Positions 1,161 through 3,020 of a stretch of 35,102 nucleotides of DNA are shown here, piece after piece. The stretch is from a virus. A program made the position numbers and the translations under genes. The notes beneath the pieces were generated by a model, which was given only the letters and a program-made list of their open reading frames with translations, made no database searches and was not told the DNA's origin. Within the stretch, counting starts at the first letter, position 1. Each line of letters opens with the position of its first letter. The stretch lies in the UHGV virus genome UHGV-0089682; one strand, given 5' to 3'.

Positions 1161-1186
1161 TTCCTGAAAACCTCGGTTTACGGGAA
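1161..1186. other. gix/hix-like recombination site (left), 26 bp, imperfect dyad around central TC
   Basis: ttcctgaaaacc-tc-ggtttacgggaa; half-sites are near reverse complements; closely resembles the Gin/Hin crossover-site pattern (TTNNNNAAAACC NN GGTTT...). Confidence 0.75.
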
Positions 1187-1296
1187 ACGGTAAACAGGGC
1201 GGCGAATGCCCTGCCATCGGACGGCACCGCCGTTGCCGCGAATAGACTCGCCACCCCAAGAAATATTAATGGGGTTCCCTTTGACGGGACGCAGGA
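1172..1296. repeat. Left arm of inverted repeat flanking the invertible segment
   Basis: 47 nt (1172-1218) identical to reverse complement of 2446-2492, followed by ~80 nt of partial identity; encodes ...[15 protein letters not shown]... in both fibre variants. Confidence 0.8.
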
Positions 1297-1534
1297 CATA
1301 AACATCACTTCTGGTATAACACAGCAGGATGCGGATTCCCGATATATCCAGGATATCAGGCTGGGAGCAGAGAACAGGCAGGCAATGTACGGTGGGGCAT
1401 ATTACTCTGCGTACGGTAATGTCATGGCAGGCCTGCAGATTGACAGTAAAGTTGATGCTTCAAACGATTTTATAGCATTCAGACCCCTGCAAAAATTAGT
1501 CGGAGGTACATGGATTACGGTATCTCAGTTATAA
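1175..1534 (+). CDS. Silent alternative tail-fibre C-terminal cassette (Sv'-like); no start codon, promoterless in current orientation
   Basis: Open frame from 1142 to TAA at 1532-1534, no ATG at 5' end; translation [47 protein letters not shown]...FRPLQKLVGGTWITVSQL shares its first ~45 aa with the C-terminal third of the active fibre gene. Confidence 0.7.
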   Translation, partial: GLRETVNRAANALPSDGTAVAANRLATPRNINGVPFDGTQDINITSGITQQDADSRYIQDIRLGAENRQAMYGGAYYSAYGNVMAGLQIDSKVDASNDFIAFRPLQKLVGGTWITVSQL

Positions 1535-1585
1535 ATAGTCAGTAAATAATATATTTTAAAACAGATTTATTTCCAGGAGGATTTT

Positions 1586-2107
1586 ATGGAACTAAAAAAT
1601 ATAACCCGTTATTATCCTGAAAATATGCCATATGGTAATAATGTTCAGCATTTTCAGAGTGAAGATGGTAAGGATTTCTACGAGTCCCTGCCATTATTCA
1701 CCAAAAAATATAAACTTTGCATAACACCTGACAGCGGCGTTATCTGCTCAATATCACAGGACGCCTCGGCGCTGTATCCTGCGGGGTTTTCTGTGGTTGA
1801 GGTCGATGAACTCCCTGAAGGCACGGATATTTCAGGAAACTGGAAGTTTGATAATGGCATAATCTCCCGTATTCCGGTTAACTACGCAAGAAAACTGGAA
1901 GCAATGCGCCAGTCATATCTTAATCAGGCATATGAAAAAATTAATGACTGGAGAACGGAGCTACAACTGGGCATCATCAGCGATGAAGACAGAGCAGCAC
2001 TTACCCAATGGATGGCATACATCAGTCAGGTGAAGAAAATGGAACTACCCGCCATTAAAACAGAAGCTGAATTTAACGCCATTAAATGGCCTGAGCAGCC
2101 ACAGTAA
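1586..2107 (+). CDS. Tail fibre assembly protein (Tfa / Mu U-like chaperone)
   Basis: 173 aa, strong SD (aggagg) 7 nt upstream of ATG; located immediately after the silent fibre tip, the usual stf-tfa arrangement; C-terminus ...AALTQWMAYISQVKKMELP... resembles Tfa proteins as I recall them (no search run). Confidence 0.75.
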   Translation: MELKNITRYYPENMPYGNNVQHFQSEDGKDFYESLPLFTKKYKLCITPDSGVICSISQDASALYPAGFSVVEVDELPEGTDISGNWKFDNGIISRIPVNYARKLEAMRQSYLNQAYEKINDWRTELQLGIISDEDRAALTQWMAYISQVKKMELPAIKTEAEFNAIKWPEQPQ

Positions 2108-2110
2108 TAA

Positions 2111-2130
2111 AGAAGGCCGGAAGGCCTTCT
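2111..2130. terminator. Bidirectional hairpin between convergent tfa and tail-fibre genes
   Basis: agaaggcc-ggaa-ggccttct: perfect 8-bp stem, 4-nt loop, placed between the tfa stop (2107) and the fibre stop (2139). Confidence 0.5.
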
Positions 2131-2138
2131 GAATATCA

Positions 2139-3020
2139 TTATATACTTGCAGCCGTCACCCATGCTCCATTTAACAGATACTGCAACGGCCGGTAATACA
2201 CGCCGCCGACGTTATCTGCCGTATTCTTACCGACATCCTGTACTTTAATTCCGGTAAGAACATTGCCGCCCCCCAGATTCAGATCCCAGCTTTCCCATGT
2301 TCCGGGCATATGTGCGGTCACCGACCCCAGTCTTATGGCGGTTACTGTTCCTGATGAGATAGTGATATCCTGCGTCCCGTCAAAGGGAACACCATTAATT
2401 GTGTGGGCATTTGCCAGCCTGTTCGCGGCAACGGCCGTTCCGTTCGATGGCAGGGCATTCGCCGCCCTGTTTACCGTTTCCCGTAAACCGACGTTATCGA
2501 TAAAAGCCCCTTTATCCGGAATGTCTGCGCCGTGCTGCTCCCTGCGCAGGTAACGGTTATCACCTTCGCTCCTGCTGTAAACATCCAGATTACTACGGGC
2601 GGTTCCCTTATTCTCCAGGTCGGCGAGATTCTGATCCTTCGCCAGGGCATTAACGTCACCGGGACCAAGACTGTTTTTTGTGGCAAGCGTCCCCAGACCA
2701 AGATAACCACGGGCAAGACGCTGGGCCTCCGCACCGGCATCAGCAATTTCTTTCAGGTTATTTTTCCGGGAAAAGGCATTCGCAGCGATAATGGCTTTAA
2801 TGGACAGCGTAAGCTGGTTTAACTGCGCCTTATCCGGCTGAATACTGGCTTCAGCCAGAATATTCAGCAGTTCGGCCTGGAGAATATTCAGCCAGTCCTG
2901 ACCAATCCAGCTGATACCTTTTTGTCCATCACCTTCGGTAAACCAGGTGGTGGTATTACTCTGCGCCGGTGCCAGTGCAGGCATATTCGCCACGCCGGAA
3001 TTATTATCAACATGAAACAT
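2139..3020 (-). CDS. Tail fibre protein (Mu S-like; constant part + currently expressed variable tip)
   Basis: 293 aa; follows baseplate genes; C-terminal ~110 aa lie inside the invertible segment; gix site sits in codons IDNVGLRE. Confidence 0.8.
2368..2492. repeat. Right arm of inverted repeat flanking the invertible segment
   Basis: Reverse complement matches 1172-1296 (see left arm). Confidence 0.8.
2478..2503. other. gix/hix-like recombination site (right), inverted relative to left site
   Basis: Reverse complement reads ttatcgataacg-tc-ggtttacgggaa; same central dinucleotide and identical right half-site as the left site. Confidence 0.75.

What the first reader, a model, noticed from the sequence alone, without database searches (positions are those of the whole stretch)
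1161..2503. Asymmetric Gin-type invertible tail-fibre segment with only one assembly chaperone
Two inverted gix-like sites (1161-1186, 2478-2503) bracket a ~1.3 kb segment. It carries the active fibre tip (minus, 2139-2477), a start-less alternative tip (plus, 1175-1534) and a single tfa (plus, 1586-2107). Mu, P1 and e14 carry a tfa for each tip. Here the tfa sits downstream of the silent tip only, so the expressed fibre has no co-oriented chaperone; after inversion the other tip plus tfa would be fused to the constant part. The two convergent units share one hairpin (2111-2130).
Basis: partly seen in the sequence, partly recalled or inferred. Interest (0 to 1): 0.6.

Follow-up and report, generated by a model that had tools for sequence, protein, structure and literature searches.

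The report
Invertible tail-fibre switch with one chaperone
A Mu-like E. coli prophage flips a 1.3 kb DNA segment to swap the tip of its tail fibre, as phage Mu does, but it carries one fibre-assembly chaperone gene instead of two, and that gene most likely serves both tips.

Summary
Positions 1161-2503 are a Gin-type invertible tail-fibre segment of a Mu-like (Sp18-type) E. coli prophage. It has two gix-like sites at the position homologous to Mu gix, a 74%-identical Gin homologue, an expressed tip A, an in-frame silent tip B, one tfa and a shared hairpin.

Inversion is real. Clonal isolates FORC_029 and FORC_043 differ by exactly this inversion, and the crossover maps to 1173-1192, starting at the gix core.

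The single tfa is a conserved family trait, not a local accident. Every related locus examined in E. coli complete genomes and IMG/VR has one tfa, always next to the B-class tip. The A-class tip never has one. Yet A is the commoner orientation (about 208 versus 21 genomes) and is under strong purifying selection.

An invertase-less lineage keeps only tip A plus an intact convergent tfa (dN/dS 0.11-0.20). A-like tips in P1-like, P2-like and Actinobacillus phages always have an adjacent Tfa. The best reading is therefore one Tfa for both tips, expressed independently of orientation. That step is inferred, because no promoter could be shown.

This is a new variant of a known kind. The invertible region of Sp18 was already noted in 2009.

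The parts
523..1095 (-). Gin-family DNA invertase (serine recombinase plus HTH_7)
   Evidence: Pfam Resolvase 1.7e-51 and HTH_7 7e-15. 74% identical to Mu Gin over 184 aa. The gix site and the 5' coding DNA align with Mu gixR-gin.
1161..1186 (.). gin-proximal gix-like crossover site (core dinucleotide 1173-1174)
   Evidence: Sequence read; comparison with Mu gix; pattern found only at the two sites. The natural crossover interval 1173-1192 starts at the core.
1166..1314 (.). Left arm of the about 150-nt inverted repeat (encodes the shared stretch ...[19 protein letters not shown]...[11 protein letters not shown])
1175..1534 (+). Silent alternative fibre tip B1 (no start codon; in frame with the constant part after inversion; stop at 1532-1534)
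   Evidence: In-silico inversion gives a 296-aa ORF. The same fused ORF is present in E. coli FORC_043. The tip is homologous to C-termini of P2 H, L-413C H and Mu-like fibres and maps to the same PHROG profile positions as tip A.
1535..1585 (+). AT-rich 51-nt spacer upstream of tfa (candidate site of an independent tfa promoter; not shown)
   Evidence: The gap is 51-121 nt in all family members, against 2 nt for S-U and S'-U' in Mu. There is no sigma-70 match above chance.
1586..2107 (+). Single tail fibre assembly protein gene (tfa, 173 aa)
   Evidence: Pfam Caudo_TAP 71.5 bits; phrog_136 2.4e-55; Mu U chain 5yvq_B 5e-16. It is the only Tfa-like locus between the fibre gene and gin.
2111..2130 (.). 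GC-rich hairpin between the converging stop codons of tfa and the fibre gene
   Evidence: Terminator-like on the minus strand; -13.4 kcal/mol. The structure is conserved with an unrelated sequence in A2-type loci.
2139..2489 (-). Expressed fibre tip A1 (C-terminal 117 aa of the 293-aa fibre)
   Evidence: ORF 2139-3020. Residues 220-293 match C-termini of P1-like (52% identity, 2e-17), P2-like and Actinobacillus fibres. A-class tips have dN/dS 0.04-0.14.
2350..2498 (.). Right arm of the inverted repeat
2478..2503 (.). Sc-proximal gix-like crossover site (core 2490-2491) inside the fibre gene
   Evidence: It differs from Mu gix at 4 of 26 positions and lies at the homologous codon position.
2490..3020 (-). 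Constant N-terminal part of the fibre (Sc), outside the invertible segment
   Evidence: Residues 1-193/198 match Mu S residues 1-186/191 (8ju3_A 5.8e-46, 5yvq_A 3.9e-45).
3020..3580 (-). Mu gp48-like baseplate wedge gene directly upstream of the fibre gene (context)
   Evidence: Pfam Phage_Mu_Gp48 5e-22.

Best explanation
This is the host-range switch of a Mu-like (Sp18-type) E. coli prophage.

The switch itself. A Gin homologue recombines two inverted gix-like sites. One lies inside the tail-fibre gene and the other next to gin, and the recombination flips about 1.3 kb. In the orientation seen in the window, the constant fibre part is fused to tip A1. After inversion it is fused to tip B1 and is followed by tfa. 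This part is shown.

The single chaperone. Unlike Mu, P1 or Fels-2, the segment carries one tail-fibre assembly gene. The most likely mechanism is that this one Tfa folds both alternative tips. The tips are two versions of the same small Mu S / P2 H-type C-terminal domain. In orientation B, tfa is co-transcribed with the fibre. In orientation A it must be transcribed on its own from the spacer upstream of it. The hairpin would then separate the two converging transcripts. This part is inferred.
For: SHOWN: it is a Gin-type switch.
- Gene order is gp47-gp48-fibre-[segment]-gin, as in Mu.
- The invertase is 74% identical to Mu Gin.
- The gix-like sites lie at the homologous position.
- Tip B is in frame after inversion.

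SHOWN: inversion happens.
- FORC_043 is collinear with the in-silico inverted window.
- FORC_029 inverted in silico equals FORC_043 over 5.8 kb, with 0 mismatches and one 1-nt gap.
- The crossover is confined to 1173-1192, starting at the gix core.
- Three genomes hold two prophage copies in opposite orientations.

SHOWN: the asymmetry is a family trait.
- Every Sp18-like locus has exactly one tfa, always downstream of a B-class tip and never next to an A-class tip.

INFERRED: one Tfa serves both tips.
1. Orientation A is the commoner assembled state: 24 versus 6 genomes for the window type and 184 versus 15 for the O157 type. A-class tips show dS above 1.4 with dN/dS 0.04-0.14, so A fibres are functional.
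2. A lineage lacking gin and tip B (one shared deletion junction) keeps fibre-A converging on an intact 173-codon tfa. Pairwise dS is 0.10-0.43 and dN/dS 0.11-0.20, and the baseplate genes are intact.
3. A-like tips in a P1-like phage, a P2-like phage, Actinobacillus phage pPE4 and Citrobacter braakii each have an immediately adjacent Tfa.
4. Tfa-tip pairing is loose. A P2-like Tfa that is 85% identical to Mu U serves an A2-like tip, whereas Mu U serves a B3-like tip. Within the family, Tfa-2 occurs with B2 or B3 tips and Tfa-3 with B3 or B2-like tips.
5. The tip-to-tfa gap is 51-121 nt here against 2 nt in Mu. The roughly 100 nt upstream of tfa are retained in the invertase-less lineage.
Against: - No promoter was demonstrated. 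There is no sigma-70-like site on the tfa strand, PWM scores are below the shuffled median, and no motif is shared with the candidate late-promoter regions of this prophage.
- In the invertase-less lineage, tfa is more diverged (4-11% nucleotide) than its flanks (1-4%). Imported alleles could therefore have carried the signature of selection from invertible loci.
- According to a paper citing North et al. 2019 (PMC9608196), the variable N-terminal Tfa domain gives fibre specificity. Tips A1 and B1 look only about one-third identical beyond the shared repeat by eye (not computed), so dual specificity is not guaranteed.
Confidence: 0.55

Rival explanations
1. Tfa is specific to the B-class tip. 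The A-class tip folds without the phage Tfa, either on its own or with host chaperones. Inversion would then toggle between a chaperone-independent fibre and a chaperone-dependent one.
For: - The tfa is always physically linked to the B tip and never to the A tip.
- No promoter for tfa was found for orientation A.
- A-class tips form one conserved class with two subtypes, whereas B tips are diverse. That fits a self-sufficient default tip.
Against: - Homologous A-like tips in P1-like, P2-like, Actinobacillus and Citrobacter elements all have an adjacent Tfa.
- The invertase-less lineage, which has only tip A, keeps tfa intact at dN/dS 0.11-0.20.
- Both tips map to the same profile positions of the same tip domain.
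Confidence: 0.25
2. Tfa is mainly a tip-bound accessory adhesin of the B fibre. Inversion would then switch between a bare tip (A) and a Tfa-capped tip (B). The invertase-less lineage would keep tfa for some other reason or through imported alleles.
For: - In Mu, Tfa forms a complex with the fibre tip (chains of 5yvq).
- Virion models treat gp50 as part of the fibre (PMC11915804).
- A cited study reports that Tfa proteins bind host surfaces (North and Davidson 2021, seen in the reference list; the paper itself was not readable).
Against: - The same points apply as for the first rival.
- It does not explain an intact convergent tfa in loci that have no B tip.
Confidence: 0.12
3. Orientation A is a defective or OFF state, or the prophage is decaying after loss of the second tfa, so the asymmetry has no function.
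For: - Some loci carry damaged genes: gin is frameshifted in L004, the fibre is frameshifted in L024, and tfa is truncated in L020.
Against: - The A orientation predominates.
- A tips have evolved under strong purifying selection over saturating synonymous divergence.
- The architecture is conserved from E. coli to Citrobacter.
- Asadulghani et al. 2009 predicted Sp18 to be intact.
Confidence: 0.05

Closest known systems
Phage Mu G segment (Sc, Sv-U / U'-S'v, gin)
   Same: - Same gene order after gp47 and gp48.
- The constant fibre part is homologous (E about 1e-45).
- The gix site lies at the homologous codon and differs at 4 of 26 positions.
- Gin is 74% identical.
- Alternative C-terminal tips end in the same RP(L/V/I)Q..(I/L)NG.W motif.
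- The Tfa belongs to the same family.

   Different: - Mu has one tfa per tip, each 2 nt after its tip, and a segment of about 3 kb.
- Here there is one tfa 51 nt after one tip, none for the other, tips of only about 117-120 aa, a 1.3 kb segment, and an IR of about 150 nt rather than 34 bp. The 34-bp figure is from my own knowledge.
Sp18, the Mu-like prophage of E. coli O157:H7 Sakai
   Same: Same prophage family. O157-type loci at dusA share gp47, gp48, Sc, gin and the single-tfa layout. Asadulghani et al. [quoted passage not shown]
   Different: - The window carries tip alleles A1/B1 and Tfa-1, whereas the O157 type carries A2/B2 and Tfa-2 (61% identical).
- The passages of the paper that I read do not mention the single chaperone.
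P1 C segment (cin) and Fels-2 / P2-like invertible H-G regions
   Same: All have a Gin-family invertase, alternative fibre C-termini of the same domain family and Caudo_TAP chaperones.
   Different: Both are symmetric, with two converging tfa genes each adjacent to its tip.
T4 gp57A-type arrangement: a fibre chaperone encoded apart from the fibre genes and serving several fibres (from my own knowledge, not tested here)
   Same: It works like the proposed mechanism: one chaperone gene, transcribed separately, assists more than one fibre protein.
   Different: The protein family is unrelated and no inversion is involved. It is an analogy of logic only.
Erwinia phage ENT90 (P2-like) fibre region
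   Same: An isolated phage with an invertase, several tip cassettes, fewer tfa genes than tips, and an expressed fibre gene converging on a tfa.
   Different: The fibre and Tfa types differ and the layout has several cassettes. Its repeats and crossover sites were not analysed.

Membership tests
Gin/Cin/Pin/Hin DNA-invertase switches (Mu G-segment type) | Small serine recombinase with a resolvase catalytic domain and a C-terminal HTH, encoded next to the segment | tested here: met
   Pfam PF00239 1.7e-51 and PF02796 7e-15; 74% identity to Mu Gin.
Gin/Cin/Pin/Hin DNA-invertase switches (Mu G-segment type) | Two 26-bp gix/hix-like sites in inverted orientation with matching 2-bp cores | tested here: met
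   Sites 1161-1186 and 2478-2503 have cores TC and GA, which are reverse complements. 4-5 mismatches to Mu gix. The pattern is unique to these sites, with 0.02 expected by chance.
Gin/Cin/Pin/Hin DNA-invertase switches (Mu G-segment type) | Inversion actually occurs, by crossover at the sites | tested here: met
   Comparative evidence only. FORC_029 and FORC_043 are identical after in-silico inversion, with the crossover interval at 1173-1192. Both orientations occur in many genomes. There is no read-level evidence from a single culture.
Gin/Cin/Pin/Hin DNA-invertase switches (Mu G-segment type) | Fis-dependent recombinational enhancer in the 5' part of the invertase gene | tested here: inconclusive
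   The gin 5' coding DNA aligns well with Mu, but Fis sites were not identified.
Gin/Cin/Pin/Hin DNA-invertase switches (Mu G-segment type) | Constant 5' part of the fibre gene outside the segment, alternative 3' parts inside it, both in frame | tested here: met
   Fused ORFs of 293 aa and 296 aa are both annotated in nature.
Mu/P1-type symmetric fibre cassette (tip plus own tfa on each strand) | Each alternative tip is followed by its own tfa | tested here: not met
   Only one Tfa-like ORF is present. Mu, a P1-like phage, Fels-2 and Tongde each have two.
Caudo_TAP tail fibre assembly proteins (Mu U / P2 G / lambda Tfa) | Match to PF02413 above the gathering score and homology to a characterised member | tested here: met
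   71.5 bits against a cut-off of 22.1; 5yvq_B (Mu U) E 5e-16 over residues 19-153; phrog_136 2.4e-55.
Caudo_TAP tail fibre assembly proteins (Mu U / P2 G / lambda Tfa) | Required for folding of, and binds to, the cognate fibre tip | not testable with these tools
   Needs co-expression or genetics. There is only indirect evolutionary evidence.
Mu S-type tail fibre | N-terminal baseplate-attachment region homologous to Mu S, and a C-terminal tip domain of the Mu S / P1 S / P2 H class | tested here: met
   N-terminus matches 5yvq_A at 3.9e-45. Tip A matches a P1-like fibre at 2e-17 and a P2-like fibre at 4e-13. Tip B matches P2-like fibres at about 3e-8.

The most novel reading that the evidence does not exclude
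Placing the single tfa inside the invertible segment may be a designed second layer of the switch. Inversion would change not only the fibre tip but also how, or whether, Tfa is made: co-transcribed and stoichiometric with tip B, but separately transcribed at a low level or silenced by convergent late transcription with tip A. If Tfa stays on the tip and helps bind the host surface, the phage would alternate between a Tfa-capped and a bare fibre. That host-range logic has not been described for Gin-type switches.
Probability: 0.12. Interest if true: 0.7.

Novelty: new variant of a known kind. Interest (0 to 1): 0.42.

Why it matters
Tail-fibre assembly proteins are usually treated as private partners of one fibre, encoded directly after it. 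Here a widespread natural system offers a test case. It occurs in about 230 of 5,426 complete E. coli genomes, including O157:H7. Two alternative tips share one chaperone gene, and the commoner orientation has the chaperone on the opposite strand.

If one Tfa folds both tips, two things follow. It would define the minimal features of a tip that a Tfa recognises, which is useful for engineering phage or tailocin host range. It would also show that tfa can be an independently expressed gene.

This finding is also a caution for annotation. The silent tip is called a pseudogene, and the two fibre forms are called 'hypothetical protein'.

Tried and rejected
- Sigma-70 promoter upstream of tfa. The consensus scan found none on the plus strand. 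My PWM scan of five upstream variants scored below the shuffled median. The result is inconclusive rather than negative for an activator-dependent late promoter.
- Shared motif between the tfa upstream region and putative late-promoter gaps of the same prophage. Only trivial AT-rich 8-mers were shared.
- GTDB species-representative scan with the fibre gave only two informative relatives, Citrobacter braakii and a truncated Edwardsiella locus. IMG/VR was far more useful.
- About 14 IMG/VR contigs end inside the inverted repeat. I did not count this as evidence for inversion, because a 150-nt inverted repeat breaks assemblies by itself.
- The idea that Tfa type co-varies strictly with the B-tip type, and is therefore B-specific, was rejected. 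L034 has Tfa-2 with B3, and L007 has Tfa-3 with a B2-like tip.
- North et al. 2019 and North and Davidson 2021 could not be read. Their content is cited only through other papers or from memory.
- A structure prediction of tip-Tfa complexes was not attempted. The tool folds single chains only, and the fibre tip is an intertwined trimer.
- The 13-nt repeat TAAAACAGAxTTA (three copies) was considered as a regulatory site. Its orientation relative to the three genes is inconsistent, so it was left unexplained.
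Full report
**1. Observation**

The window is a Mu-like prophage read from its right end, with almost all genes on the minus strand. The order is as follows:
- baseplate J/gp47 (3571-4653) and gp48 (3020-3580);
- a 293-aa fibre gene (2139-3020);
- on the plus strand, a tfa (1586-2107) and a start-less fibre tip (1175-1534);
- a 190-aa serine invertase (523-1095, minus);
- the start of a DUF6645 gene.

These assignments rest.

- The repeat finder gives inverted arms 1166-1251/2413-2498 (91%) and 1265-1314/2350-2399 (84%).
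- Laid side by side, the arms are perfectly identical for 47 bp. That stretch starts exactly at the central dinucleotide of the two 26-bp gix-like sites, 1161-1186 and 2478-2503.
- The cores are TC and GA, which are reverse complements. The sites are therefore inverted and compatible.
- The Sc-proximal site differs from Mu gix at 4 of 26 positions. It sits at the same place in the fibre gene as in Mu, followed by the same ACGGTAAACAGGGC.
- A degenerate core pattern hits only these two sites in 35 kb, with 0.02 expected by chance.
- Flipping 1175-2489 in silico keeps the reading frame and produces a 296-aa fibre ending in tip B.
- The hairpin 2111-2130 is real.
- There is no second Tfa-like frame.

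**2. Identity of the parts**

- The invertase has the resolvase and HTH_7 domains and is 74% identical to Mu Gin.
- Fibre residues 1-193/198 match the constant part of Mu S (8ju3_A 5.8e-46; 5yvq_A 3.9e-45).
- Tfa matches Pfam Caudo_TAP above threshold, phrog_136 and Mu U in the S-U crystal structure (5yvq_B, 5e-16).
- Both tips map to the same C-terminal positions of the same PHROG fibre profiles.
- Both tips match C-termini of P1-, P2- and Mu-type fibres. They are two versions of one small terminal domain, and both end in RPLQ.L..G.W.T.

**3. Inversion is real**

The region is 99% identical to many E. coli chromosomes.
- E. coli FORC_043 carries it with the middle part inverted, giving a 296-aa fibre followed by a co-oriented tfa. 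It is collinear with the in-silico inverted window.
- FORC_029 and FORC_043 are clonal at this locus. Inverting FORC_029 at the gix core reproduces FORC_043 over 5.8 kb, with no mismatch and a single 1-nt gap.
- Only crossover points between window positions 1173 and 1192 give zero mismatches. This interval starts at the gix core and excludes recombination deeper in the repeat.
- Among 5,426 complete E. coli genomes, the Sc+tip A junction is intact in 24 and the Sc+tip B junction in 6.
- Three genomes hold two prophage copies in opposite orientations.
- For the O157-type alleles the counts are 184 (A) and 15 (B). These counts are not phylogenetically independent.

**4. The single tfa is a family trait**

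I collected loci from E. coli genomes, IMG/VR and GTDB. I mapped gp48, Sc, Tfa and Gin on them by tblastn and extracted all tips.

Every locus with a related constant part (at least about 60% identity) has exactly one tfa between the fibre gene and gin. Both orientations occur in each sublineage.

The tips fall into two classes.
- **A-class.** A1 is the window type and A2 the O157/Sp18 type. They share ...L(T/S)GI.VQ(D/E).G..(S/T)ADN(I/V)(G/A)GVYYRP... and are never next to tfa.
- **B-class.** B1 is the window type, B2 is a second type, and B3 resembles the Mu S tip. Each is followed by tfa after a gap of 51-121 nt.

A and B alleles combine freely.

Outside E. coli the picture is mixed.
- More distant relatives (L056, L057) have two converging tfa genes, like Mu.
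- Citrobacter braakii (L008/L062) again has one. There, however, the A-like tip is the one followed by tfa.

Mu, a P1-like phage, Fels-2 and Yersinia phage Tongde are symmetric.

**5. How the A fibre is most likely folded**

Five lines of evidence point to one Tfa serving both tips.

(a) A fibres are functional. The A orientation predominates (section 3). A-class alleles differ at saturating synonymous distances (dS above 1.4), with dN/dS 0.04-0.14.

(b) An invertase-less lineage keeps tfa.
- L003 and its relatives M1, M18, CI5 and S1-CAM-01-A, together with IMG/VR L021, L023 and L025-L029, lack gin and tip B.
- All share one deletion junction, which joins the 3' end of gin to the last roughly 60 nt of a B tip.
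- They retain fibre-A converging on a full-length tfa.
- Their tfa alleles differ by dS 0.10-0.43 with dN/dS 0.11-0.20.
- These alleles have no close counterpart among the invertible loci sampled.
- The neighbouring baseplate genes are intact.
- A chaperone gene useful only for a tip that no longer exists should have decayed.

(c) A-like tips elsewhere have their own Tfa. The P1-like, P2-like, Actinobacillus and Citrobacter examples each have a Tfa immediately downstream. The domain therefore belongs to the Tfa-assisted kind.

(d) Tfa-tip pairing is loose.
- The Tfa of a P2-like phage with an A2-like tip is 85% identical to Mu U, whose partner tip is B3-like.
- Within the family, Tfa-2 occurs with B2 or B3 tips, and Tfa-3 with B3 or B2-like tips.

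(e) The spacing differs from Mu. In Mu, tfa starts 2 nt after its tip. Here the gap is 51-121 nt and AT-rich. In Tfa-3 loci about 100 nt of it are conserved and kept in the invertase-less lineage.

**6. What is not shown**

- I could not find a promoter for tfa in orientation A. The consensus scan was negative on that strand.
- PWM scores of five upstream variants were below the shuffled median.
- No motif was shared with candidate late-promoter regions.
- Mu late promoters are activator-dependent and lack a -35 element (my own knowledge), so this result is inconclusive.
- In the invertase-less lineage, tfa is more diverged than its flanks. Allele import cannot be excluded.
- According to PMC9608196, which cites North et al. 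2019, the variable N-terminal Tfa domain binds the fibre and the conserved C-terminal domain drives oligomerisation. Dual specificity is therefore plausible but needs a test.

The rivals that remain are these:
- a Tfa-independent A tip (0.25);
- Tfa as a B-specific cap or adhesin (0.12);
- a defective A state (0.05).

**7. The hairpin**

The stem-loop between the two converging stop codons is conserved as a structure with two unrelated sequences. A1 loci have AGAAGGCC/GGCCTTCT and A2 loci have AAAGGGTGC/GCACCCTTT.
- In A2 loci it is followed by a T-run on the tfa-sense strand.
- In the window the T-rich tail is on the fibre-sense strand.

This fits a two-way transcript end that keeps late fibre transcription from running antisense into tfa, and the reverse.

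**8. Comparison and novelty**

The system works like the Mu G segment, and it passes every membership test I could run for a Gin-type fibre switch. It fails the one feature that defines the symmetric Mu/P1 cassette, which is one tfa per tip.

The prophage family is known. [quoted passage not shown] Large surveys list tail-fibre genes and tfa among the targets and neighbours of programmed inversions (PMC9881135).

I found no statement about three points: the single shared chaperone, the prevalence of the tfa-less orientation, or the invertase-less lineage with a convergent tfa. I therefore rate it a new variant of a known kind, of moderate interest.

Erwinia phage ENT90 hints that fewer tfa genes than tips, and a fibre gene converging on a tfa, also occur in other phage groups.

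Noticed in passing
window 461-473, 1139-1151, 1557-1569: A 13-nt motif, T(A/T)AAACAGA(G/T)T(T/C)A, occurs three times on the plus strand: between gin and DUF6645, between gin and the gix site, and 17 nt upstream of the tfa start. Tfa-2-type loci also have AAAACAGATTATCT upstream of tfa. It could be a binding site or chance.
   Followed up: partly
L003 1692-1842; also L021, L023, L025-L029: An invertase-less sublineage. One shared deletion joins the 3' end of gin to the last roughly 60 nt of a B tip. This leaves fibre-A, the hairpin and an intact convergent tfa, and the fibre-A allele can be A1 or A2.
   Followed up: yes
E. coli DLI.5a, TOE17, AST46 (hits H76/H121, H77/H133, H80/H126): Three complete genomes carry two copies of this prophage, one in each orientation.
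   Followed up: no
L001 about 2496 (FORC_043), corresponding to silent tip A: The silent tip A of FORC_043 has a 1-nt deletion in a G-run relative to FORC_029, which frameshifts the unexpressed copy. It is either a real mutation in the silent cassette or a homopolymer sequencing error.
   Followed up: partly
L008/L062 6480-10441 (Citrobacter braakii): This locus also has a single tfa (229 aa), but here the A-like tip is the one next to it. Downstream of the invertase lie a collagen-repeat (GDTGPQG...) fibre-like ORF and a further Tfa-like ORF.
   Followed up: partly
L101 3796-6206 and L103 478-2247 (Erwinia phage ENT90): This P2-like phage has an invertase, at least three short tip-like ORFs and two tfa genes. 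The expressed tail protein gene converges on a tfa, so it looks like a multi-cassette system with fewer chaperones than tips.
   Followed up: partly
L039-L041, L044, L045, L047, L048, L050, L052, L055, L065 (IMG/VR contigs): Many viral contigs end inside the fibre gene at residues 169-226, which is at the inverted repeat. This is a systematic assembly break, so this switch is often split in metagenome and draft assemblies.
   Followed up: no
window 1-437 (minus strand) and L006 906-1382: Where Mu has com/mom, this prophage has a large DUF6645 gene as its last gene. In O157-type loci next to dusA, a sialate O-acetylesterase remnant lies in that position. The function of the DUF6645 gene and how it is expressed late were not examined.
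   Followed up: no
L002/L098 2261-2635; L001 3230-4120: RefSeq annotation calls the silent tip a pseudogene ('incomplete; missing N-terminus') and calls both fused fibre forms 'hypothetical protein'. The switch is therefore invisible in standard annotation.
   Followed up: no
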